From the NCBI GenBank assembly GCA_031422955.1, contig JANPEN010000088.1:1-40380 (forward strand): a stretch of 40,380 bases of DNA, read 5' to 3'. The notes below the pieces were generated by a model. It did no database searches and had not been told where the DNA came from. It was given only the letters and a program-made list of their open reading frames with translations. Below, piece by piece: positions 4,115-38,799 of this stretch; the first letter of the stretch is position 1, and the number at the start of each line of letters is the position of its first letter. Both the position numbers and the translations under genes were made by a program. Source of the DNA: Acidimicrobiia bacterium (GTDB lineage: Bacteria > Actinomycetota > Acidimicrobiia > Acidimicrobiales > CAIXPF01).

Positions 4115-4900
4115 TCAGCGGCCGTGGAATGGTCCGGGTTCGCGCTTTTCGGCAAATGAACGTGCCGCTTCTTGGAAATCTTCGGTTAGGTACAGTTTGA
4201 GCGGGGCGGTCTGCATCTCCATCTCCCGAGCCAGCTTGGCCAGGTAGCCGCGTCGGCTGCGCACAGTGGCTCGCACTGAAAGCGGCGGGTTGCGGTCAAC
4301 CTCTTGGGCCATCTGGTGGGCGACGGCCACCGCCTCACCGGCGGGAGCCAGGCGGTTGATCAGGCCATGTTCAAAAGCCTCCTCGGCGCTGAACCACCGA
4401 CCGGTGAGGGCCATCTCGGTGCCGAAGGCGGCCGCCCCCCGAAACTGCATGACCGCCCAGTAACGCGACCCGCCCAGGCCCCTGGACACCTCGGTGATCT
4501 GCAACTTGGTGCCGGCTTCGGCCACCACCAGATCACTGTCCAACATGATGCCGGTGGCCAGACCCATCACGTAGCCGTGGACGGCGGTGATGACTGGTTT
4601 CCAGTTCACCGAGTCCAAGAACAGCTCACCGGCCTTGGCTCCGTGGCCCTGCGGCCCTCCCAACGCTTCGAACTCTTCACGGGAGCGCAGTTGGCGCTGC
4701 TGCACATCGGCCCCGGTGGAAAAGGCCCGTCCGTTGCCGCACAGCACCGCCACATGAGCGGCCGAATCGGCGTCGAATCGCCGTAGCTGGGCGCCGAGGG
4801 CGATGACCATCTCGTCGCTGAACGCGTTGAGCTTGTCGGCTCGGTTGAGACGCAAGGTGACAACGGCACCTTCACGTTCGTACTGCACGAGTTCATCCAT
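4115..4900 (-). CDS. enoyl-CoA hydratase/isomerase (crotonase) family protein
   Basis: 261 aa. LNRADKLNAF, GNGRAFSTGADV and AVHGYVMGLATGIMLDSDLVVA are typical crotonase-fold oxyanion-hole segments. Confidence 0.9.
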   Translation of the reverse strand: MDELVQYEREGAVVTLRLNRADKLNAFSDEMVIALGAQLRRFDADSAAHVAVLCGNGRAFSTGADVQQRQLRSREEFEALGGPQGHGAKAGELFLDSVNWKPVITAVHGYVMGLATGIMLDSDLVVAEAGTKLQITEVSRGLGGSRYWAVMQFRGAAAFGTEMALTGRWFSAEEAFEHGLINRLAPAGEAVAVAHQMAQEVDRNPPLSVRATVRSRRGYLAKLAREMEMQTAPLKLYLTEDFQEAARSFAEKREPGPFHGR

Positions 4901-4988: not shown

Positions 4989-5915
4989 ATGGACCGCCAT
5001 GACGACTTGCCCGAGGCGTTGGCCGAACAGCCCATTCGCTACATCGATCGGACCCGGCGCTGGTATCAGCTACTCGGTTACCAGCCCTACCGCTGGCCCC
5101 AGTTCGACGAGGTGGCCTTCACCGAGTTGACCAAGCCGTTAGCGGCCAGCAAGGTCGCCCTCGTCACCACCGCCGCCCCTTTTCAGCCGGGAGCCGGCGA
5201 CCAGGGGCCCGGCGCGGCCTACAACGGGGCGGCCAAGTTCTTCGAGGTCTACGCCCAGTCCTGTGATGAGCCGGCCGACGTGCGTATCTCCCACATCGGC
5301 TACGACCGAGTTCATAGCACCGCCGCGGATCCCGGCACCTGGTTTCCCCTGCGTCGCTTGCAGGAGGCGGCCCGGGCCGGCCGCATCGGCGGTGTGACGG
5401 CACGGTTTTATGGTGCTCCCACCGTTCGCCGGCAGCGCAGCACCACCGAGGAACACGCCCCCCAGCTGGCGGCGATGCTGCAAGCCGATGGGGCCGATGT
5501 GGCGTTGTTGGTGCCGGTTTGACCGGTGTGTCACCAGACCGTGAGTCTGGTTGCCCGCCATCTGGAAGCGGTCGGGATCCCCACCGTGATCCTGGGGGCG
5601 GCCAAAGACATTGTGGAAACGGTGGGAGTCCCCCGGTTCGTGTTTTCTGACGTCCCTTTGGGAAACTCCGCCGGTCTGCCCTTTGACGAGGTCTCCCAGC
5701 GCACCGCCCTCGAGTCCGCCTTGCGGTTGCTGGAAACCGCCCCCGGTCCCCGCACCACGTGGCAGAGCCCGCTGCGCTGGGGCCCGCCCGGGGACCATGG
5801 CTGGAAGCGAGATTTCAACAATCCGACCGCCCTCAGCACCGAACAACGAGACGAGGCCCGACGGCGTTTCGAGGAACAGAAACAAGCGGCCCGGCCCGGC
5901 CCCGTCACTGGCTGA
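4989..5915 (+). CDS. GrdB/PrdB-like (glycine/sarcosine/betaine/D-proline reductase B family) selenoprotein; TGA 5520-5522 read as selenocysteine
   Basis: ORFs 4989..5522 and 5526..5915 share one frame and are separated only by TGA. Read-through gives ...ADVALLVPV-U-PVCHQTVSLVARHLEAVGIPTVILG..., a UxxC pair at the position where family members carry [C/U]PxC. A hairpin follows the UGA. Confidence 0.8.
5533..5551 (+). promoter_or_regulatory. candidate bacterial SECIS hairpin for UGA 5520
   Basis: ACCAGAC-CGUGA-GUCUGGU forms a 7-bp perfect stem with a 5-nt loop containing GU, starting 10 nt after the UGA. G5530-C5554 and U5531-G5553 could extend it across a C/U mismatch. Confidence 0.55.
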
Positions 5916-6741
5916 TGCTGACCGCTCGAGCCGTTCCCACCGCGCATTGACGAGCGTCGCGACCCAGATCGAGCAGCTCCACCATGCTCAGCACCGCGTC
6001 GGGCTCGAGCCGCATCGGCGAGGCCACCACCCGAAAGGGGCCGTCGGTAGCGGGAGCAAGATAGGAAAAGTGCAGATCGACCGTTCGGGTCCCAACACCG
6101 AGCTGCCGCTGCCCACACAGCGACGCACCGCGTTCCAACAACGCCCCCATGGCCCCGCCCTGGATGGATCCGAAGCTGTTGTAGATGCGCTCGTGATGGT
6201 CGAGCTCGAAGCTGACCTCAACCGGATCGATGCGCAGCCCGTAGTACTCGTCGAGCACCAACCGAGGCTCCTCATCGGGATGGGTGTAGTCGACCGATCT
6301 CGCTTTCGGCGGAGGACTCACCGGGCCGTCACCCCGGCGGGGTAACCGGCTGAAGGTGACATGGGCAACGGCGGCGACGCGCCCCTCGTCGTCGAGGAGA
6401 GTGTTCTCCGACAGGACCGTGTTGGTCCCCACCCGCAAGGGTCTGGCAGTGCCGTGGACGCGCCCCTCCGACGGCGGATGCACCAGATGAAGCTTGAAAT
6501 CGAGGGTGGCCGTCCAGTCCGGGTAGGCGGCCCGGGAGCCGAGCACACCGGCGCACAGATCCACCAGCGGCGTCAAGGCGCCCATCCGCATGAGGCCACC
6601 GGCGTCGAGATGATCGGCCAGTACCGGCATCGACCCCTTGACGGTGCCGTCCTCGCACAACTCGTGGGCGATACGGCTGTACGAAAGGATCGAGCGGGGA
6701 TGAGGATAACGGCGCGGCGGCTTGTCGGTTTCCTTGGCCAT
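5905..6741 (-). CDS. double hot-dog fold thioesterase (PaaI/4HBT-like) family protein
   Basis: 278 aa with two repeated hot-dog-like halves (LMRMGALTPLVDLCAG... and NSFGSIQGGAMGALLE...). The 3' end overlaps the convergent selenoprotein gene by 11 nt (5905-5915). Confidence 0.65.
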   Translation of the reverse strand: MAKETDKPPRRYPHPRSILSYSRIAHELCEDGTVKGSMPVLADHLDAGGLMRMGALTPLVDLCAGVLGSRAAYPDWTATLDFKLHLVHPPSEGRVHGTARPLRVGTNTVLSENTLLDDEGRVAAVAHVTFSRLPRRGDGPVSPPPKARSVDYTHPDEEPRLVLDEYYGLRIDPVEVSFELDHHERIYNSFGSIQGGAMGALLERGASLCGQRQLGVGTRTVDLHFSYLAPATDGPFRVVASPMRLEPDAVLSMVELLDLGRDARQCAVGTARAVSISQ

Positions 6742-12760: not shown

Positions 12761-14893
12761 TCAGCCGGCCCGGAAAGTTGACCCGGCTGCGGCCAGCCCG
12801 GCCAGGCGGGGAGAGATATTCCAGTGCTCGCCCCCGAGACGCTGGTGATAGGCGTTGATCTTTTCCGCCACCTGGTCCAATCCCACGGTGTCGGACCAGA
12901 ACATGGGCCCACCGGTGTAGAGCGGCCAGCCGTAGCCGTTGATCCACACCACATCGATATCACTAGCCCGAATGGCAATGCCCTCATCGAGGATCTTGGC
13001 TCCCTCGTTGACCATGGGCAACAGGCAGCGCTCCAACACCTCCTCGTCGCTCACCGGGCGGGGGGTGATGCCCCGCCGAACCCCCAACGCAGCGATGAGG
13101 GCCTCGACCTCGGGATCGGGGGTGGCGGCCCGGGTAGCGGGTTCATAGGTGTAGTAACCCCGCCCATTCTTCTGGCCCCGCCGGCCCGATTCGCACAAAA
13201 CCTCGCGCACGGTCGATCCAGTGGAGCCTTCTGCCTTCCAGCCGATGTCGAGCCCGGCCAGGTCGCTCATGGCGTAAGGGCCCATGGGGAAACCGAAGTC
13301 GTAGATGACCCGGTCGATCTGGGACGGGGTGGCACCCTCCAGCAGCATGCGGTCCGCCTCGATGCGGCGCATGGCCAACATCCGGTTGCCGACGAAGCCA
13401 TGGCACACCCCGACCAACACCGCAATCTTGTTGATGCGCTTGGCCAGAGCCATGGTGGTGGCGATGACCTCCTTGGAGCTTTTGTCCCCCCGCACCACCT
13501 CGAGCAGCTTCATGACGTTGGCCGGGGAGAAGAAATGCATCCCGACCACGCCTTCGGGCCGGGTCGTGGCCGCGGCGATGGCGTTGACATCCAGCGCCGA
13601 GGTGTTGGTGGCCAACAACGCCCCCGGCTTGCAGATCCGGTCCAGCTCGGTGAAAACCTGGCGTTTAAGCTCCAGATCTTCGAACACCGCCTCGATGACG
13701 ATGTCGAGATCGGCGAAATCTCCTTGATCCACCGAGCCGGTGATAAGGGCCATCCGGGTGCCGACGTCGTCGGAGGTGATCGAGCCCCTGGCCGCGGAGC
13801 GCTCGTAGTTGCTGCGAATAACGCCCAGACCCCGCTCCAGCGAAGCCCGGTCTCGTTCCACGATGGTGACGGGAATGCCGACGTTGGCGAAGTTCATGGC
13901 GATGCCCCCTCCCATGGTCCCCGCCCCCAACACCCCGGCCGAGGCGATAGGCAGTTGCGCGGTGTCCTTGGCCACGTCGGGGACCTTGGCCGCTTCCCGC
14001 TCGGCGAAGAAGTAGTACTGCTGAGCCTTGGCTTGAGAACCGGCCATCAGCTCGCCGAACAGCTCGCGCTCGCGGGCCACTCCCTGATCGAAGGGCAAGG
14101 TGGCGGCGGCCTCGATGCAACGGATGTTGTACTCAGGGGCCAGGAACCCTCGGCTGCGATGGGCGATCTTCTGGCGGAACTGGGTGAAAATCCCCGGATC
14201 GTGGTCGAGCTTGTCGTTGCGGTCCCGAATGGCCCGCAGCGGCCTGGCCTCGGCCAGCACCTGACGGGCGAAGGCGATGGCGCCGGCCTCGAGGGTGGCG
14301 GCCTCGAGGGTGGCGTGGTCCCTTCCCGTCTGCCCGGTAGGGTCGGTCACGATCTGGTCGATGAGCCCGCAGGCCAACGCCTCCTCGGCGCCGATGGGCT
14401 CGCCCGAGGTCATCATCTCCAGTGCTTTGGCGATACCGGTGACCCGGGGCAAGCGCTGGGTGCCACCCGCGCCGGGCAATAGGCCCAGCTTCACCTCGGG
14501 CAGCCCGAAACGGGCAGTGGGCACCGCCACCCGGAAATGGGCGCACATGGCCACCTCCAACCCGCCGCCCAGGGCGGTGCCGTGAATGGCGGCGATGACC
14601 GGTTTGGGGCAGTTCTCCATGGCCGCCTGGGCCCCTTGCAGGGACGGCGGCTGGGGCGGCTTGGCGAACTCGGTGATGTCGGCGCCGGCGATAAAGGTTC
14701 GCCCGGCGCAGAGCAACACGATGGCGGCCACTGCGGGGTCCGCCACCGCCGCGCTCACCCCATCGAGGATGCCTTGGCGTACATGAAAGCTGAGGGCGTT
14801 GACCGGCGGGTTGTCCACCGTGATCACCGCCACCGTGGGCTGGCCATCGGCGTCGTGCAGGTCGAGCCGAACAGATTGGGTCAGTGCATTCAT
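12761..14893 (-). CDS. bifunctional enoyl-CoA hydratase / 3-hydroxyacyl-CoA dehydrogenase (FadB/FadJ-type)
   Basis: 710 aa. The N-terminal crotonase domain has DNPPVNALS and [12 protein letters not shown]. The central Rossmann fold has [17 protein letters not shown]-terminal 3HCDH domains follow. Confidence 0.9.
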
Positions 14894-15843
14894 CGTGCTC
14901 CCTTGGCAGTTGCAGCCGCGGTTCCGGCGCGCGGCGCGCGCTCCCCCGCGTTACCGGGCTCAGCGACTGGCTCAAAGCCGGTGACGTACTGCTGCTCGTA
15001 GCGGTCCCAGGCCGGGTAGTCGATCAGCTCGTAGAGCTCCGCCCGGGTGGCCATACGCTCCAGTATGGCCTGCTGGCTACCGGTGCGGGCCAGTTCGGCG
15101 GCGCCCTCGCGCACGGCATGCAACATCAGCCTAAAGGCCATCATGGGAAAAATTACGGTGGCGAAACCGAATGCTTCGAACTGCTCGGCGCTGAAGTATG
15201 GAGTCTTCCCGAACTCGGTCATGTTAGCCAGCAGTGCCACGGCGGGCAGGGCCTGAGCGAACGCGCGAAACTCGCCTTCACTGCGCAACGCCTCGGCGAA
15301 GATCATATCGGCGCCGGCCTCGACGTAGGCGCCGGCCCGATCGATGGCACCGGCCAGGCCTTCAGTGGCGGCTGCGTCGACCCTGGCAATGATGACAAAG
15401 CTTTCGTCGCGGCGGGCGTCGAGGGCGGCGTGCAACTTGCCAACCATCTCCGCCACCGGCACGGTCCGCTTGCCGTCAAGGTGGCCGCACCGCTTGGGGC
15501 TTTCCTGGTCCTCTAGATGAATCCCAGCCACCCCGGCCCGTTCGAAGGCCCGCACGGTGCGCACCACGTTGACGGCGTTACCGAAACCGGTATCGGCGTC
15601 GCAGAACACCGGCACATCAACCACGTCGACCATACGGCCAGCGTTTTGCACGAACTCGTCGAGGGTGCCCAAAGCGATGTCGGGCAGACCCAAATGGGCG
15701 TTGACGGTGCCGGCACCGGTCATGTAGATCGCCCCGAACCCAGCGGCGGCCATAACCCTGGCGGTGATGGCGTCATAGGCACCGGGAGCGACGAGTATGG
15801 CGGGATCCGCGATGAGTTGGCGCAGCCGCCGGCCGGGGCTCAC
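14890..15843 (-). CDS. isocitrate lyase / PEP mutase superfamily protein (methylisocitrate lyase / carboxyPEP mutase / dimethylmalate lyase-like)
   Basis: APGAYDAITARV, GIHLEDQESPKRCGHLDGK and GADMIFAEAL. The GTG start at 15843 makes a GTGA overlap with the upstream stop, and the stop makes an ATGA overlap with the FadB-like start. The ORF-track start at 15921 lies inside the upstream gene. Confidence 0.85.
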   Translation of the reverse strand: MSPGRRLRQLIADPAILVAPGAYDAITARVMAAAGFGAIYMTGAGTVNAHLGLPDIALGTLDEFVQNAGRMVDVVDVPVFCDADTGFGNAVNVVRTVRAFERAGVAGIHLEDQESPKRCGHLDGKRTVPVAEMVGKLHAALDARRDESFVIIARVDAAATEGLAGAIDRAGAYVEAGADMIFAEALRSEGEFRAFAQALPAVALLANMTEFGKTPYFSAEQFEAFGFATVIFPMMAFRLMLHAVREGAAELARTGSQQAILERMATRAELYELIDYPAWDRYEQQYVTGFEPVAEPGNAGERAPRAGTAAATAKGAR

Positions 15844-16895
15844 AGGTGCGCCGTTCCGGTGAGCAGGCGACGGGCGGTGCGGACCACCCCAGCGGAGCGG
15901 ACCTGGTCGCCCTCGATGCACACGGTGGCCTGCACCGATCCCTTGGGGTGCCAGATCCGGACCACCTCACCGGCGGGCGAGACGGCCCCGGTGGCGGGCC
16001 GGGCGAGCGCGTGGACCAGGGTGCCCGGGAGGCGAGCGGCGGCGGCGATGCACAGCGCCCCGGTCATCGGCACCGCGTGGTGGACCCGGCCCATGGAGGT
16101 GGCCAGGACCCGCAGGTCCTCACCCGGGCTGACCAACACCAGCCGGGGAATGGCCAGGCTGTCCACCCCGATGCGACGCCCGGCGGCGACCCGCAGCGCC
16201 TCGAGCGCGGCCAGAAGTTCGGGGCGGGCGTTGAGCTCGGCCGGGCTCTCGGTGCCCGCCAGCCCGAAGGCGCTGGCCGCGGCGAACACGTAGGGGCTAG
16301 CCACATCAACGATGGACACGTCGTGGCCGTCGAGACCCTCGCGTCGGGCCCCGGTGGGAAACAGCGCGCCGGTAACCGAACCGGCCGGCTCCAGATAATC
16401 CGTGACCAGCGCGGCGCCCGAACCAGGCACCCCGTCGATAACGGTGTCGCCCTCCCAGGCGGCTCGACCGTCGCGCACCACCACCGTGGCCCGCACCACC
16501 ACCGCGGTGTTGAGGTTGCGCAGCCGTACCACCGTCTGGGGCGGGCACGGCGCAACCAGCCCCTCGTCCACCGCGTAGTGAGCCACCGCGGCGGTGAGGT
16601 TGCCGCAGTTGCCGGTGTAGTCGACCACCGCCTGGTCGACGGCGACCTGGGCGAACAGGTAATCCACATCGGCGCCCGGCTCCGCCGAGGGACCCACCGC
16701 CATTACCTTGGAGGTGGAGCTGTGGGTGCCGCCCAGACCGTCGAGCTGCATGGGGTCAGGGCTGCCCATCAGCCGCAGCAGCAGCCGATCGCGCCGGGCC
16801 GGGTCAACGGGCAGATCCGCCATGCGGATGAACACCCCTTTGGAGGTGCCCCCGCGCATCAGCACCACCGGTAGATCGCACGGCAGGTCAGTCAT
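15840..16895 (-). CDS. PrpF / 3-methylitaconate isomerase / 4-oxalomesaconate tautomerase family protein
   Basis: MTDLPCDLPVVLMRGGTSKGVFI... and GNCGNLTAAVAHYAV are hallmark PrpF-family segments. ATG 16895 overlaps the upstream stop by 8 nt (ATGACTGA). Confidence 0.85.
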   Translation of the reverse strand: MTDLPCDLPVVLMRGGTSKGVFIRMADLPVDPARRDRLLLRLMGSPDPMQLDGLGGTHSSTSKVMAVGPSAEPGADVDYLFAQVAVDQAVVDYTGNCGNLTAAVAHYAVDEGLVAPCPPQTVVRLRNLNTAVVVRATVVVRDGRAAWEGDTVIDGVPGSGAALVTDYLEPAGSVTGALFPTGARREGLDGHDVSIVDVASPYVFAAASAFGLAGTESPAELNARPELLAALEALRVAAGRRIGVDSLAIPRLVLVSPGEDLRVLATSMGRVHHAVPMTGALCIAAAARLPGTLVHALARPATGAVSPAGEVVRIWHPKGSVQATVCIEGDQVRSAGVVRTARRLLTGTAHL

Positions 16896-18402
16896 GGGCG
16901 GCGACCAGGGCGGTGGCGGTTTGGGCCGCACCCCGCCCGGCGATGCGTCCGAAGGTGGCCCCCCGCATCAGGCCAGACCCGGCCGCGTAGTTGTGGAAGA
17001 AGAATCCTCCGGCGATCTCACCGGTAGCGAACAAGCCCTCCATGGGCTCACCCACGTTATCGATGACCTGAGCGTGGCGATCGATCCGTAAACCGCCGTA
17101 GGTGAAGGTGATCCCGCAGGTGACGGCGTAGGCCACGAAGGGAGCGCTATCCAAGGTGATGGCCCAGTTCGACTTGGCCGGCTGACCGGGGGCGTCGGCC
17201 CGCACCCCGTCCTTCGCGAAAGCGTCGAACCCGGACCCGTCGTCACAGGCGGCGTTGAACTCCGCCACGGTAGTGGCCAACCCGTCGGCAGAGATGCCCA
17301 GCTTGGCGGCCAGATCTTCCAGCGTGTCCGCCTCCACCGGGATGCCGGTGGCGTAGCGGGGCTCCAGCAGATGGATCGTCTTTTGATCAAAGATCTGCCA
17401 TCCTCGGGCGCCGTTCTGGGCCCGGATGGCCCAACCGGTCTTGGCGTATGTCAGCCACACCTCGTCCTCACCCTCATCGACAAAACGGCGACCGTCGCGG
17501 TCCACCAGAAGGCAATAGGGGTAGGAGTAGCGGCTCATCCGGTCGGTCAGGGACAGCTCGCCCACGTCGGGGGCGTGGGCGTCGAGGGGTGAGGCGTGGG
17601 CGCCGCCCCAGTGCCCCGCCGGCGCCGCCCCCGCGGCCAGGGCCTGCATGAGCATTGTCCCCTGGTTGAAACGGGTACCGCGCACCTTGACCAGGTCCCA
17701 CCCGGCGCCCAGGTAGCGCAGCCGCAGCTCGGGGTTGGACTCGAAACCGCCACAGGCCAACACCACCGCACCGGCCCGCAGATCCTCAAAAGCGTCGCGA
17801 CCCCGGACTCGCACCCCCACGCAGCGCGACCCTTCCATGAGCAGCTCCTGCACCGGGCAGTCGTAACGCAGCTCGATACCGGCCGTCTCGGCCGCGTTGA
17901 ACAGGTCGTACATCAGCCCGATGCCCTCGTTGGTGGCCCGCACGGCGCCGCCCGGGGGAACCGCGTAGCGCTCCCCGGCCGGCAACTGGGCCGGGTCGAA
18001 CAGCTTGTCCACGACCAGCTCCCAACGCACCCCGTAGCCCTGCATCCAGGCCATGGTTTCGTAGGAGGTGTCGATCAGGGTGCTGATGAGCTCGGGGTCG
18101 GAGCGGCCCTGGCAGACCAGGTCGATGTCTCCAGAGAAGCGGGCCGGCTCATAGGGGGCCACCGTGACCCGGTCCACCCAGCGGGCGCCCTCCTCGCTGA
18201 GCAGGGGCTGGAGATGGTCCAGACCACCATGAGCGAAACGGAAGATCCCGCCGGAAAAGCGGCTGTTGCCACCCCGGAGTTCCTTGGGCGCTGCTTCGAG
18301 CACGGTCACCCGGGCGCCGAGCTCCCGAGCTTGCAGGGCGGCAGTCAACGCCGCATTGCCTGCTCCCACCACGATCACGTCGGCCACCGGTGCGCTGTCC
18401 AT
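16888..18402 (-). CDS. FAD-binding dehydrogenase, tricarballylate dehydrogenase TcuA-like (fumarate-reductase flavoprotein fold)
   Basis: 504 aa with VIVVGAGNAALTAALQARELGARVTVLEAAPKELRGGNS, ACGGFESN, RGTRFNQG, DEGEDE, ITFTYGGL and TFGRIAG. As far as I recall the TcuA sequence, these match that family. Confidence 0.8.
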   Translation of the reverse strand: MDSAPVADVIVVGAGNAALTAALQARELGARVTVLEAAPKELRGGNSRFSGGIFRFAHGGLDHLQPLLSEEGARWVDRVTVAPYEPARFSGDIDLVCQGRSDPELISTLIDTSYETMAWMQGYGVRWELVVDKLFDPAQLPAGERYAVPPGGAVRATNEGIGLMYDLFNAAETAGIELRYDCPVQELLMEGSRCVGVRVRGRDAFEDLRAGAVVLACGGFESNPELRLRYLGAGWDLVKVRGTRFNQGTMLMQALAAGAAPAGHWGGAHASPLDAHAPDVGELSLTDRMSRYSYPYCLLVDRDGRRFVDEGEDEVWLTYAKTGWAIRAQNGARGWQIFDQKTIHLLEPRYATGIPVEADTLEDLAAKLGISADGLATTVAEFNAACDDGSGFDAFAKDGVRADAPGQPAKSNWAITLDSAPFVAYAVTCGITFTYGGLRIDRHAQVIDNVGEPMEGLFATGEIAGGFFFHNYAAGSGLMRGATFGRIAGRGAAQTATALVAAHD

Positions 18403-18580
18403 GCCGGCACGCTATTCGATCCCTCGCCGTGGCGGGCGGCCTGGCCCTCGGCCCCGCCGATTAGGGTCGGCGACCATGCTTTTTGGACCGGTTGCCGGAC
18501 CCGGTCGGCCCTCGCCCGGTGGGTGGTCGCACGGTGGGTGGTTGGGCGGCCTGGTACATAGGAGTTTCTCCGGTGACGAA

Positions 18581-38319: not shown

Positions 38320-38799
38320 ATGACCGACTTCTACGAGCTGAAGCTGACCTCGATCACCGGTGAAGCGGTCGACTTCGCCCAGTACCGGGGCAAGTTCTGC
38401 CTCATCGTCAACGTGGCCAGCAAATGAGGCCTCACCCCCCAGTACGCAGGTCTGCGTGCGCTCCAAGACACCCTCGGTGACCGCGGCCTCGTGGTCATGG
38501 GCTTTCCCTGTAACCAGTTCGGCGCCCAGGAACCGGGCACCGATGAGGAGATCCTGGCCTTCGCCACCACCAACTACGGCGTCACCTTCCCCCTGTTCTC
38601 CAAGATCGAGGTGAACGGCGAAGGCGCCTGTGCGCTGTTCCAGTGGCTCACCGCGGCGTTGCCCAAGGCCGATGGCGATCCGAGCGTGGCCTGGAACTTC
38701 ACCAAGTTTCTCGTGAGTCGAGACGGCACCCCGTTGCAGCGCTTCGAGCCCAAGACCACCCCGGAGGAGGTCGGCCAAGTGCTCGACGCGCTGCTCTAG
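38320..38799 (+). CDS. glutathione peroxidase (GPx/BtuE family) with selenocysteine at TGA 38425-38427
   Basis: ATG 38320 opens [47 protein letters not shown]...[16 protein letters not shown]...WNFTKFLV. The TGA aligns with the catalytic Cys of E. coli BtuE ([15 protein letters not shown]). The ORF track shows only the C-terminal 102 aa. Confidence 0.85.
38442..38459 (+). promoter_or_regulatory. candidate bacterial SECIS hairpin for UGA 38425
   Basis: GUACGCA-GGUC-UGCGUGC forms a 7-bp stem (one G-U) with a GGUC tetraloop, starting 14 nt after the UGA. The apex GCAGGUCUGC is identical to the apex of the E. coli fdhF SECIS as I recall it. Confidence 0.6.

What the first reader, a model, noticed from the sequence alone, without database searches (positions are those of the whole stretch)
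4989..5915. In-frame UGA on a UxxC motif with a downstream hairpin: a GrdB/PrdB-like selenoprotein that ORF callers split in two
ORFs 4989..5522 and 5526..5915 are in the same frame and are separated only by TGA 5520-5522. Read-through gives ...GADVALLVPV-U-PVCHQTVSLVARHLEAVGIPTVILGAAKD... This places a U-x-x-C redox pair at the position where the glycine/sarcosine/betaine/D-proline reductase B family (Pfam GRDB) carries [Cys/Sec]-P-x-Cys after a hydrophobic strand. The second ORF has no RBS and would begin 3 nt after the stop, so neither half looks like an independent gene. Ten nt after the UGA there is a perfect 7-bp hairpin (ACCAGAC / GUCUGGU, loop CGUGA, 5533-5551), a position compatible with a bacterial SECIS. 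No grdA/C/D/E or prdA partners are nearby. The neighbours are a crotonase (4115..4900) and a double hot-dog thioesterase whose 3' end overlaps this gene by 11 nt. This is therefore an orphan GrdB-like selenoprotein of unknown substrate, possibly acyl-CoA linked.
Basis: partly seen in the sequence, partly recalled or inferred. Interest (0 to 1): 0.8.

Follow-up and report, generated by a model that had tools for sequence, protein, structure and literature searches.

The report
Split PrdB-like selenoprotein gene in Acidimicrobiia
The two adjacent ORFs are really one 308-codon gene whose in-frame UGA almost certainly encodes selenocysteine in a PrdB/GrdB-related redox enzyme; this kind of selenoprotein is already catalogued, and its substrate is still unknown.

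Summary
ORFs 4989..5522 and 5526..5915 are one gene interrupted by UGA 5520-5522.

- The UGA aligns with a nearly invariant Cys (LVPN-C-PVCHQT) in thousands of ~311-aa homologues.
- It is conserved in 20 of 20 Sec-type loci (39-97% aa identity).
- It is followed by a hairpin (5530-5554; core 5533-5551). The hairpin shows no synonymous variation, has two compensatory pair changes, and is absent from 12 of 13 Cys-type loci.
- The downstream half is under purifying selection (dN/dS 0.17).
- UGA is the normal stop for 22 of 31 genes in the window.
- A second gene (glutathione peroxidase, 38320..38799) has UGA at its peroxidatic Cys plus a hairpin, so the organism very probably decodes Sec. The Sec machinery itself could not be checked.

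The protein belongs to the Pfam GRDB superfamily. It fails the curated PrdB, GrdB and selenoprotein-B cut-offs and has no PrdA/GrdE/GrdA partner, so it is an orphan PrdB-like protein. "PrdB" UxxC selenoproteins outside Stickland fermenters have been catalogued since 2005, so this is a new member of a known kind.

New lead: gene fusions, an operon arrangement and neighbourhoods all tie the family to acyl-CoA chemistry.

The parts
4989..5915 (+). Complete coding sequence of the orphan PrdB-like selenoprotein (308 residues including Sec178; terminal stop TGA 5913-5915)
   Evidence: frame; PrdB model TIGR04483 aligns residues 42-250 across the UGA, E=4e-27; about 311-aa full-length homologues, 58-63% id; dN/dS 0.26 upstream, 0.17 downstream of the UGA
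5520..5522 (+). In-frame UGA, inferred Sec codon (residue 178)
   Evidence: Aligns with nearly invariant Cys in LVPN-C-PVCHQT. TGA in 20 of 20 Sec-type loci, TGC/TGT in Cys-type loci. Database N-halves of diverged relatives end exactly here. All 9 cluster members are 177 aa.
5529..5531 (+). Cys181 codon (TGT), resolving partner of the U-x-x-C redox motif
   Evidence: Invariant in all aligned full-length and C-half sequences. The AF2 model places U178 in the loop after strand 171-175 and C181 at the start of helix 181-194.
5530..5554 (+). SECIS-like hairpin: outer pairs G5530-C5554 and U5531-G5553, a 1x1 mismatch, a 7-bp stem 5533-5539/5545-5551, and apical loop CGUGA 5540-5544
   Evidence: structure; 99.3% of cells paired; compensatory C-G>U-A in L002 and A-U>U-A in L035; 0/500 shuffles. 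(no synonymous variation at codons +5..+9, fixed AGT Ser codon). (dG -10.6 to -13.6 in 20/20 TGA loci; mean -5.1 in 13 Cys-type loci, only L023 comparable).
4115..4900 (-). Divergently transcribed crotonase/enoyl-CoA hydratase family gene (context)
   Evidence: Pfam ECH_1/ECH_2; NCBIfam crotonase family only, below equivalog cut-offs. Adjacency conserved only in L012 and L001.
5905..6741 (-). Convergent double hot-dog thioesterase gene, overlapping the 3' end by 11 nt (context)
   Evidence: coordinates; Pfam 4HBT/4HBT_3; TIGR00369. Adjacency present only in L012.

Best explanation
Positions 4989..5915 are one gene for a 308-residue selenoprotein of the GRDB (glycine/sarcosine/betaine/D-proline reductase protein B) superfamily.

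Decoding. When the ribosome reaches UGA 5520-5522, the hairpin 10 nt downstream (5530-5554; 7-bp stem, G-containing CGUGA loop) acts as a bacterial SECIS. It recruits SelB-GTP-Sec-tRNA(Sec), so selenocysteine is inserted instead of terminating. This step is inferred by analogy with E. coli fdhF.

Protein. Sec178 and Cys181 form a U-x-x-C redox pair at a strand-loop-helix junction. By analogy with PrdB and GrdB, the selenolate attacks the substrate, Cys181 resolves the adduct as a selenenylsulfide, and a thiol system re-reduces it. This is inferred.

What it is not. The protein is not an orthologue of PrdB or GrdB. It lacks any pyruvoyl-subunit (PrdA/GrdE), GrdA or PrdC partner. It belongs to a large stand-alone subfamily that is mostly Cys-type in Proteobacteria and Sec-type in Acidimicrobiia.

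Substrate. Unknown. The most likely candidate is a CoA-activated carboxylic acid, because the family is recurrently fused to acyl-CoA ligases, co-operonic or adjacent with a family III CoA-transferase, and neighboured by crotonase, thioesterase and acyl-CoA dehydrogenase genes.
For: Shown:
- Single in-frame TGA, same frame on both sides.
- One PrdB-model alignment spans the TGA.
- Cys at this column in full-length homologues.
- TGA conserved in 20/20 loci at 39-97% aa identity, TGC/TGT elsewhere.
- Database N-halves end and C-halves begin at this column in many 50%-identity clusters.
- Downstream half has dN/dS 0.17 at dS about 1.
- GTG 5526 is not conserved.
- Hairpin: no synonymous variation, fixed AGT Ser codon; two compensatory pairs, 0/500 shuffles; present in 20/20 TGA loci against 1/13 Cys-type loci.
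- TGA terminates 22/31 genes in the window, so there is no global reassignment.
- A second gene (GPx, 38320..38799) has TGA exactly at the peroxidatic Cys of solved GPx structures, plus a 7-bp hairpin with a GGUC loop 14 nt downstream.
- The AF2 model (pLDDT 80, pTM 0.84) puts U178 between strand 171-175 and helix 181-194.

Literature:
- PrdB carries UxxC and GrdB carries UxxCxxC (PMC13188914).
- 'PrdB' (pfam07355, UxxC) is an abundant selenoprotein family in oxic ocean metagenomes (PMC1088965, PMC2398784).
- Actinomarinales, an order of Acidimicrobiia, carry selA/B/C/D (bioRxiv 10.64898/2026.04.03.716425).

Acyl-CoA link:
- AMP-binding ligase fusions P0122-P0124.
- CoA-transferase III is the immediate downstream neighbour in L002, L003, L005, L007, L014, L029 and L031. 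It overlaps the stop codon in L029. The L031 copy is 63-65% identical to the Acidimicrobiia copies, against about 30% for paralogues.
- ECH, 4HBT, ACAD and 3HCDH neighbours.
Against: - No selA, selB, selD or tRNA-Sec was found in the window or in 316 kb of related loci. The rest of the genome could not be searched, so the Sec machinery is only inferred.
- The window's own hairpin has an unremarkable folding z-score (-0.69).
- The stem is nearly invariant, so covariation rests on two events.
- One Cys-type homologue (Bradyrhizobium, L023) has an equally stable hairpin. Part of the pairing potential therefore comes from the conserved HQTVSL coding sequence.
- Most TGA loci belong to one clade and are not independent.
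- The catalytic mechanism is entirely by analogy. No structure of any family member exists.
- The acyl-CoA neighbours are mostly on the opposite strand, their identity varies between lineages, and these genomes are rich in such genes.
- Three contexts have no acyl-CoA gene nearby: L004, the L008/L015/L016/L018 group, and Bradyrhizobium.
Confidence: 0.85

Rival explanations
1. The UGA is recoded locally but inserts something other than selenocysteine. Examples are Cys delivered by a SelB/tRNA(Sec)-like system, or near-cognate Trp/Cys read-through stimulated by the hairpin.
For: The Sec machinery was not observed directly. Cys is the residue at this column in most homologues, so Cys insertion would give a functional protein. 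Natural Cys recoding of UGA through Sec-like machinery has been reported; this rests on my own knowledge and was not checked here.
Against: A second gene in the window has UGA at the catalytic Cys/Sec position of GPx, a classical selenoenzyme, with its own hairpin. Sec machinery is documented in another Acidimicrobiia order (bioRxiv 10.64898/2026.04.03.716425). If Cys were wanted, a one-base TGA>TGC/TGT change would serve. Conservation of TGA plus the hairpin over 39-97% identity argues for a benefit specific to Sec.
Confidence: 0.06
2. The UGA is a genuine stop. The locus makes a 177-aa N-terminal protein, with or without a separately initiated C-terminal protein (from GTG 5526 or the conserved GTG 5541). 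That is a split gene, as current annotations show.
For: Gene callers annotate it this way in every public assembly. A GTG at codon +7 (5541-5543) is conserved in nearly all TGA loci.
Against: - GTG 5526 is not conserved.
- The conserved GTG 5541 lies in the hairpin loop. Starting there would delete the invariant Cys181 and His182.
- No Shine-Dalgarno-like sequence precedes either GTG.
- The split point coincides exactly with an invariant catalytic-motif Cys of full-length homologues.
- Fixed third-codon positions over the hairpin and compensatory changes that cost amino-acid substitutions (L035) are not expected for a simple stop.
Confidence: 0.05
3. The gene is a pseudogene or the TGA is a sequencing/assembly error: a TGC/TGT>TGA nonsense change in a Cys-type gene.
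For: TGA is one substitution away from TGC/TGT. The source is a metagenome-assembled genome.
Against: The same TGA occurs in 20 independent loci from different studies, at 39-97% aa identity, and in all 9 near-identical assemblies. The downstream half is under stronger purifying selection than the upstream half.
Confidence: 0.01
4. Sec is inserted, but the hairpin 5530-5554 is a by-product of the conserved HQTVSL coding sequence and is not the functional SECIS.
For: The Cys-type Bradyrhizobium gene (L023) has an equally stable hairpin at the same place. The single-sequence z-score is not significant. No curated bacterial SECIS model was available to score it.
Against: 12 of 13 Cys-type loci encoding the same or similar peptide lack the hairpin and use AGC or other codons where all Sec-type loci use AGT. 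L035 changed Thr>Ser and Ser>Gly together and kept pairing. The loop is small and G-containing, the feature the Sargasso study names as common to bacterial SECIS elements (PMC1088965).
Confidence: 0.03

Closest known systems
PrdB, the selenocysteine subunit of D-proline reductase (Clostridium/Acetoanaerobium sticklandii, C. difficile; NCBIfam TIGR04483)
   Same: Best-scoring curated family (E=4e-27, one alignment over residues 42-250, model positions 18-220 of 238). Similar size class: it corresponds to the C-terminal half of GrdB. Same U-x-x-C motif (PMC13188914). Sec is encoded by in-frame UGA with a downstream hairpin.
   Different: Score is 95 bits against an equivalog cut-off of 300. No PrdA pyruvoyl proprotein, PrdC, PrdD/E or proline racemase nearby in any of about 30 loci. 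It has extra N-terminal (about 40 aa) and C-terminal (about 55 aa) conserved extensions. It occurs in aerobic-type Acidimicrobiia and Proteobacteria rather than Stickland fermenters.
GrdB/GrdF/GrdH, selenoprotein B of glycine/sarcosine/betaine reductase (Pfam PF07355, TIGR01917, TIGR01918)
   Same: Passes the Pfam GRDB gathering threshold (33-35 bits against 22). The Pfam alignment runs to model position 344-345 of 347 at residues 174-175, three to four residues before U178. NCBIfam GrdB models align residues 34-251 to positions 204-423.
   Different: Only the C-terminal half of GrdB is present. It is below the TIGR01917 (49.5 vs 602) and TIGR01918 (48.9 vs 65.45) cut-offs. The motif is UPVCHQT, so the third Cys of GrdB's UxxCxxC (PMC13188914) is missing. 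There is no GrdA, GrdE or GrdC/D.
'Proline reductase PrdB' selenoprotein family of selenoproteome surveys (Sargasso Sea 2005, GOS 2008; also listed for Anaeromyxobacter and Geobacter, 2006)
   Same: pfam07355, UxxC motif, Sec/Cys homologue pairs, abundant in oxic environments and in non-Stickland organisms (PMC1088965, PMC2398784, PMC1794560). This is very probably the same kind of orphan PrdB-like protein.
   Different: Those surveys give no sequences in the text I could compare, so identity of subfamily was not tested. They do not discuss the missing PrdA partner, Acidimicrobiia, or any link to CoA-transferases or acyl-CoA ligases.
Bacterial SECIS of E. coli fdhF and the bSECISearch consensus (Zhang & Gladyshev 2005)
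   Same: A hairpin immediately downstream of UGA within the coding sequence, with a small apical loop containing G (PMC1088965). The loop starts 17 nt after the UGA, inside the 16-37 nt range I recall for bSECISearch (own knowledge).
   Different: No sequence similarity to the fdhF element. No bulged U. It could not be scored with bSECISearch or any Rfam model.
FarB/FarE fluoroacetate reductase of Cloacibacillus porcorum (GrdB-like)
   Same: It shows that GrdB-type selenoproteins have been recruited to cleave bonds other than C-N at a carbon next to a carboxyl group (PMC10838667). That supports the idea of a different substrate here.
   Different: FarB keeps a GrdE-like partner and feeds the GrdA/GrdC/D system. 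The protein here has no such partners.

Membership tests
Bacterial selenoprotein gene (Sec-encoding UGA) | In-frame UGA aligned with Cys in homologues (Sec/Cys pair) | tested here: met
   nearly invariant Cys in LVPN-C-PVCHQT. TGC/TGT in 12 Cys-type loci (13th, L011, frameshifted).
Bacterial selenoprotein gene (Sec-encoding UGA) | Coding conservation continues downstream of the UGA in the same frame | tested here: met
   dN/dS 0.17 downstream against 0.26 upstream; one domain alignment spans the UGA.
Bacterial selenoprotein gene (Sec-encoding UGA) | SECIS-like stem-loop shortly downstream of the UGA, with a small apical loop containing G | tested here: met
   7+2 bp stem, loop CGUGA starting 17 nt after the UGA, two compensatory pairs; conserved and nearly specific to TGA forms. 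Not scored with bSECISearch (unavailable).
Bacterial selenoprotein gene (Sec-encoding UGA) | Genome encodes tRNA-Sec, SelA, SelB and SelD | not testable with these tools
   None found in the window or in 316 kb of related loci. Indirect support: a second UGA-at-catalytic-Cys gene (GPx) in the window, and sel genes in Actinomarinales (bioRxiv 10.64898/2026.04.03.716425).
Bacterial selenoprotein gene (Sec-encoding UGA) | Selenium demonstrated in the protein (75Se labelling or MS) | not testable with these tools
   Experimental.
Pfam GRDB (PF07355) superfamily | Score at or above the gathering threshold (22 bits) | tested here: met
   33.3 bits for the read-through and 35.4 bits for the N-half, profile positions 206-345 of 347.
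D-proline reductase PrdB (TIGR04483 equivalog) | Score at or above the equivalog cut-off (300 bits) | tested here: not met
   95.2 bits.
D-proline reductase PrdB (TIGR04483 equivalog) | U-x-x-C motif at the Sec site | tested here: met
   U178-P-V-C181. The motif for PrdB is taken from PMC13188914, PMC1088965 and PMC2398784.
D-proline reductase PrdB (TIGR04483 equivalog) | Encoded with the PrdA pyruvoyl proprotein (and PrdC/D/E/F) | tested here: not met
   Searches (window; Sec-type loci; Cys-type loci): no such neighbour anywhere.
Glycine reductase GrdB (TIGR01917) / selenoprotein-B subfamily (TIGR01918) | Score at or above the curated cut-offs (602 and 65.45 bits) | tested here: not met
   49.5 and 48.9 bits.
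Glycine reductase GrdB (TIGR01917) / selenoprotein-B subfamily (TIGR01918) | Full-length architecture of about 430 aa, including the N-terminal about 200 residues | tested here: not met
   alignments start at model position 204. The protein is 308 aa.
Glycine reductase GrdB (TIGR01917) / selenoprotein-B subfamily (TIGR01918) | UxxCxxC motif; partners GrdA, GrdE, GrdC/D | tested here: not met
   The motif is UPVCHQT. No partners are present.
Sec column equivalent to the Sec of authentic PrdB/GrdB | The UGA aligns with the Sec residue of a characterised PrdB or GrdB sequence | tested here: inconclusive
   No named reference sequence could be obtained. Model coordinates are consistent: Pfam GRDB ends 3-4 residues before U178, and linear mapping puts U178 at about position 348-350 of the GrdB models and about 148-154 of the PrdB model. 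The expected Sec positions come from memory only.

The most novel reading that the evidence does not exclude
The orphan PrdB-like family (Sec-type in Acidimicrobiia, Cys-type in Proteobacteria) could be a pyruvoyl-independent reductase. It would use its U/C-x-x-C pair to cleave reductively a bond next to the carbonyl of a CoA-activated acid. The thioester would then play the activating role that the PrdA/GrdE pyruvoyl imine plays in Stickland reductases. Substrates would be supplied by the fused acyl-CoA ligase or the co-travelling family III CoA-transferase. That would be a new selenium-dependent step of acyl-CoA metabolism in aerobic bacteria. It would also explain why 'PrdB' is among the most abundant selenoproteins in oxic oceans.
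Probability: 0.2. Interest if true: 0.7.

Novelty: new member of a known kind. Interest (0 to 1): 0.35.

Why it matters
1. Annotation. Every public assembly I saw splits this gene into two unnamed ORFs. NCBIfam has no model that captures the subfamily above cut-off. The Sec forms are therefore systematically mis-annotated, and the selenoproteome of Acidimicrobiia is under-counted.

2. Trait. Together with the Sec-type glutathione peroxidase in the same window, the gene indicates that this Acidimicrobiia lineage uses selenocysteine. So far that is documented only for Actinomarinales, in a 2026 preprint.

3. Function. The gene belongs to a very large family: more than 5,000 clusters at 90% identity and 1,246 representatives at 50%. 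Selenoproteome surveys file it under 'proline reductase', yet it has no PrdA partner and no known substrate. The acyl-CoA ligase fusions and the orthologous CoA-transferase neighbour found here give a concrete, testable direction.

Tried and rejected
- Rfam: nothing at gathering thresholds for the whole window. A permissive search of 5450-5650 gave only chance hits. Bacterial SECIS elements are not covered.
- Single-sequence folding significance: not significant (z = -0.69 for the target, +0.18 for GPx). I did not use it as evidence.
- First covariation test on 16 sequences, including a 4-bp lower extension: not better than shuffles. The lower extension was dropped because 9 of 15 sequences break pair 12-40. 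Only after adding the diverged L034 and L035 did the 9-pair structure beat all shuffles.
- Terminator or promoter reading of the hairpin: no U-tract follows it, and no promoter-like sites were found.
- Sec machinery: ARAGORN on the window and 12 loci, then tblastn with E. coli SelA/SelB/SelD against 316 kb. Nothing found. This is uninformative about the rest of the genome.
- PDB by sequence, by profile and by fold: no relative. The weak diphthine synthase and designed-repeat hits are noise.
- The idea that the crotonase/thioesterase pair is a conserved operon partner: rejected. The crotonase adjacency is conserved only in L012 and L001, and the thioesterase only in L012.
- Genome-wide scans for other in-frame TGAs: in the window only the target and GPx are real, and 17590 lies in a shadow frame antisense to the FAD-oxidoreductase gene. 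The other hits in the related loci are gene ends or shadow frames.
The homologue P0001 was used instead.
- A direct residue-by-residue alignment to an authentic, named PrdB or GrdB could not be made, because none was retrievable.
Full report
OBSERVATION. The window carries ATG 4989..TGA 5522 (177 codons). One codon later comes GTG 5526..TGA 5915, in the same frame. The read-through is ...ADVALLVPV-U-PVCHQTVSLVARHLEAVG.... The minus-strand thioesterase ORF (5905..6741) overlaps the 3' end by 11 nt, and the crotonase lies at 4115..4900.

ONE GENE, NOT TWO. The read-through aligns as a single stretch (residues 42-250) to NCBIfam PrdB TIGR04483 positions 18-220 of 238 (E=4e-27). It also aligns to the GrdB-type models from position 204 onwards. 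Pfam GRDB matches the N-half above its gathering threshold and ends three to four residues before the UGA. A database search returned more than 5,000 homologues. The best are full-length proteins of about 311 aa at 58-63% identity, mostly from Bradyrhizobium, Xanthobacteraceae and Acetobacteraceae. In their alignment the UGA column is a nearly invariant Cys in the motif LVPN-C-PVCHQT. Among 15 distinct Sec-type sequences the 'start' GTG 5526 is GTG in only 7. The half downstream of the UGA has median dN/dS 0.17 at dS about 1, lower than the upstream half at 0.26. It is therefore translated in this frame and is under selection.

THE UGA IS CONSERVED. Scans of genome and metagenome collections and look-ups of diverged representatives gave 20 loci with TGA at this codon, at 39-97% aa identity to the window. 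Nearly all named ones are Acidimicrobiia or Acidimicrobiales MAGs from unrelated studies. Thirteen Cys-type loci were examined; twelve have TGC or TGT (Ramlibacter, Poriferihabitaceae, Bradyrhizobium, Acetobacteraceae and others), and the thirteenth, L011, is frameshifted at this point. All nine members of the 90%-identity cluster of the window's N-half are 177 aa in independent NCBI, ENA and Logan assemblies. A search of 1.8 billion representatives found 1,246 relatives. Many of them end exactly before this column (LLVPT, LLVPS, LVAN, LLTPV). Others begin M-CHQTVSL, which is the mis-called second half. Sequencing error and pseudogene are excluded. TGA terminates 22 of 31 Pfam-supported genes in the window, so there is no genome-wide reassignment and the recoding must be local.

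THE HAIRPIN. On its own, the window's 64-nt segment folds no better than shuffles (z = -0.69). The case is comparative.
- Codons +5 to +9 (Q-T-V-S-L), the core of the stem-loop, show zero synonymous variation in 15 distinct sequences. Flanking 4-fold sites carry about 1-1.9 bits of codon entropy. Ser is always AGT.
- The consensus structure is a 7-bp stem plus two outer pairs across a 1x1 mismatch.
- A first pair count on 16 sequences was not better than shuffles, because the stem is almost invariant.
- Adding the two most diverged Sec-type loci changed this. L034 (39% aa identity) has the identical hairpin. L035 (48%) reads ACCAGUCC-GUC-GGACUGGU. There an A-U pair has become U-A through simultaneous Thr>Ser and Ser>Gly substitutions.
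- With L002 (C-G>U-A), two of nine pairs carry compensatory double changes and 99.3% of cells pair. None of 500 shuffles reaches the observed values on four of five measures. The tool's caveat about relatedness applies.
- Stability is -10.6 to -13.6 kcal/mol in all 20 TGA loci, against a mean of -5.1 in 13 Cys-type loci.

There is one exception. The Bradyrhizobium Cys-type gene L023 has an equally stable hairpin and also uses AGT. Part of the pairing potential is thus latent in the HQTVSL coding sequence. L023 may carry a fossil SECIS or may be a coincidence.

The loop is small and contains G, the common feature of bacterial SECIS elements named in PMC1088965. It begins 17 nt after the UGA, within the range I recall for bSECISearch (own knowledge). 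Rfam has nothing to offer here. The hairpin is not followed by a U-tract.

DOES THE ORGANISM DECODE SEC? No tRNA, selA, selB or selD lies in the window or in 316 kb of related loci.

The window does supply an independent witness. While annotating it I found that the glutathione peroxidase gene (ATG 38320..TAG 38799) is also interrupted by a TGA (38425-38427), in FCLIVNVASK-U-GLTPQY. The read-through aligns end to end with solved GPx structures. The UGA falls on the peroxidatic Cys of yeast Hyr1/Gpx3 (LIVNVASKCGFTPQY, PDB 3cmi). A 7-bp hairpin with a GGUC loop starts 14 nt downstream (38442-38459). A systematic scan found no other credible in-frame TGA in the window. So the window has two unrelated genes, each with UGA at a catalytic Cys position of a known selenoprotein family and each with a hairpin. 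That makes a Sec-decoding host very likely. A 2026 preprint reports selA/B/C/D in all 84 complete genomes of Actinomarinales, another order of Acidimicrobiia (10.64898/2026.04.03.716425).

WHAT THE PROTEIN IS. It passes Pfam GRDB. It falls far below the curated cut-offs of PrdB (95 vs 300 bits), GrdB (49.5 vs 602) and the selenoprotein-B subfamily TIGR01918 (48.9 vs 65.45). It corresponds only to the C-terminal, PrdB-like half of GrdB. It has UxxC rather than GrdB's UxxCxxC (motifs from PMC13188914). It carries conserved N- and C-terminal extensions of its own. No PrdA, GrdE, GrdA, GrdC/D or PrdC homologue is near it in the window or in about 30 related loci. It is therefore a member of the GRDB superfamily but not of the PrdB or GrdB families: an orphan PrdB-like protein.

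An AlphaFold model from the homologue alignment (pLDDT 80, pTM 0.84) places U178 in the loop between strand 171-175 and helix 181-194, with Cys181 at the helix start. That is the usual geometry of a redox CxxC/UxxC pair. Nothing in the PDB resembles it by sequence, profile or fold.

HOW IT PROBABLY WORKS. Shown: local recoding signals and a U-x-x-C pair at a strand-loop-helix junction. Inferred from the E. coli fdhF paradigm: SelB-GTP-Sec-tRNA(Sec) binds the hairpin and delivers Sec at the UGA. Inferred from the PrdB/GrdB mechanism (Kabisch 1999 and Andreesen 2004, as cited in PMC13188914 and PMC10838667): the selenolate attacks the substrate, Cys181 resolves the adduct as a selenenylsulfide, and a thiol system re-reduces it. 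The FarB case shows that GrdB-type selenoproteins can act on bonds other than C-N (PMC10838667).

SUBSTRATE LEAD. That adjacency is conserved only in the nearest relatives (crotonase in L012 and L001; thioesterase in L012 only). Three independent kinds of association nevertheless point the same way.
1. A family III CoA-transferase is the immediate downstream neighbour in L002, L003, L005, L007 and L014 (convergent) and in two Cys-type loci on the same strand. These are L029 (Acetobacteraceae), where start and stop overlap as ATGA, and L031, an unnamed MAG carrying FixP/FixS. The L031 enzyme is 63-65% identical to the Acidimicrobiia ones, whereas paralogues share about 30%. NCBIfam gives no equivalog. 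The nearest models are succinate-glutarate, oxalate and formyl-CoA transferases.
2. Three distinct representatives (P0122, P0123, P0124) fuse an AMP-binding acyl-CoA-ligase module to the N-terminus of the PrdB-like domain through a short linker.
3. Other neighbours include crotonases (L003, L007, L013, L020, L021), a 3-hydroxyacyl-CoA dehydrogenase fusion (L001, L017) and an acyl-CoA dehydrogenase (L020).

Against this: most neighbours are on the opposite strand, these genomes are rich in such genes, and several contexts have none. Those are L004 (MFS transporter), the L008/L015/L016/L018 group (amidohydrolase, CMD) and Bradyrhizobium (HIT/HAD, ClpA). I rate a CoA-thioester substrate as the best available hypothesis, not as a finding.

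COMPARISON WITH WHAT IS KNOWN, AND NOVELTY. The Sargasso Sea (2005) and GOS (2008) selenoproteome surveys list 'proline reductase PrdB' (pfam07355, UxxC) among the most abundant selenoprotein families of oxic surface ocean, with 42 and 235 Sec sequences. The 2006 comparative study lists 'proline reductase' selenoproteins in Anaeromyxobacter and Geobacter (PMC1088965, PMC2398784, PMC1794560). Sec-containing PrdB-like proteins outside Stickland fermenters are thus an established entry in selenoprotein catalogues, even though no paper I could find discusses their missing partner or their function. The finding is a real, well-supported new member of a known kind, in a lineage (non-Actinomarinales Acidimicrobiia) where Sec use is barely documented. 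Its practical value is for annotation. Its scientific value lies in the still-open function of a very large family, for which the ligase fusions and the CoA-transferase partner are a new lead.

VERDICT. Observation confirmed; interpretation supported. Confidence that this is a single gene with a Sec-encoding UGA and a functional SECIS-like hairpin is about 0.85. The catalytic mechanism and the substrate are inference. Novelty: new member of a known kind. Interest: 0.35.

Noticed in passing
window 38320-38799 (+); TGA 38425-38427; hairpin 38442-38459: A second split selenoprotein gene: glutathione peroxidase with in-frame TGA in FCLIVNVASK-U-GLTPQY. The TGA falls exactly on the peroxidatic Cys of solved GPx structures (3cmi). 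A 7-bp hairpin with a GGUC loop starts 14 nt downstream. Gene callers would report only the 123-aa C-terminal fragment.
   Followed up: partly
L023:6543-6580 (Bradyrhizobium, Cys-type, TGC): This Cys-type homologue has an 8-bp hairpin (ACCAGACU-GUC-AGUCUGGU, -14.2 kcal/mol) at the same position as the SECIS of the Sec forms, and it uses the AGT Ser codon. It may be a fossil SECIS from a Sec ancestor, or a coincidence.
   Followed up: partly
L002, L003, L005, L007, L014 (about +400..+1600 from the TGA, minus strand); L031:2498-3703 (+); L029:1927-3120 (+): A family III CoA-transferase is the immediate downstream neighbour of the PrdB-like gene in Sec-type Acidimicrobiia and in two Cys-type loci. 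The L031 copy is 63-65% identical to the Acidimicrobiia copies, against about 30% for paralogues. In L029 the two genes overlap (ATGA).
   Followed up: partly
P0124 (805 aa), P0123 (514 aa), P0122 (403 aa): Natural fusions of an AMP-binding acyl-CoA-ligase-type module (PF00501 + PF13193) to the N-terminus of the Cys-type PrdB-like domain.
   Followed up: partly
P0139 (480 aa): A Ser/Thr protein kinase domain (residues 12-249) followed by part of the PrdB-like domain (268-467). It could be a real fusion or a gene-calling artefact; this was not examined.
   Followed up: no
P0014 (342 aa), alignment A1 columns 191-221: An exact internal tandem duplication of 31 residues (QTISLVARHLEANGISTVVMGCAKDIVEHAA) directly after the CxxC motif. 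It is probably an assembly artefact.
   Followed up: no
P0169, alignment A3 column of U178: A distant full-length homologue has Arg at the Sec/Cys column (LLPYR-PVCHQT). The codon was not inspected; CGA would be one step from TGA.
   Followed up: no
L011:50-90 (Tabrizicola MAG, coverage about 3.8): The homologue is frameshifted just at the Cys codon. Read with a one-base shift it gives LVPNCP. This is likely a sequencing error in a low-coverage MAG.
   Followed up: no
L004:10903-12213 (+): In this Sec-type locus an MFS transporter gene starts 4 nt before the end of the selenoprotein gene on the same strand. This is the only clearly co-operonic partner seen among the Sec-type loci.
   Followed up: no
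window 12761-18411 (-): A same-strand run of ECH/3-hydroxyacyl-CoA dehydrogenase, PEP-mutase/isocitrate-lyase family, PrpF and an FAD_binding_2 oxidoreductase. It looks like an organic-acid or acyl-CoA catabolic cluster about 7 kb from the selenoprotein gene.
   Followed up: no
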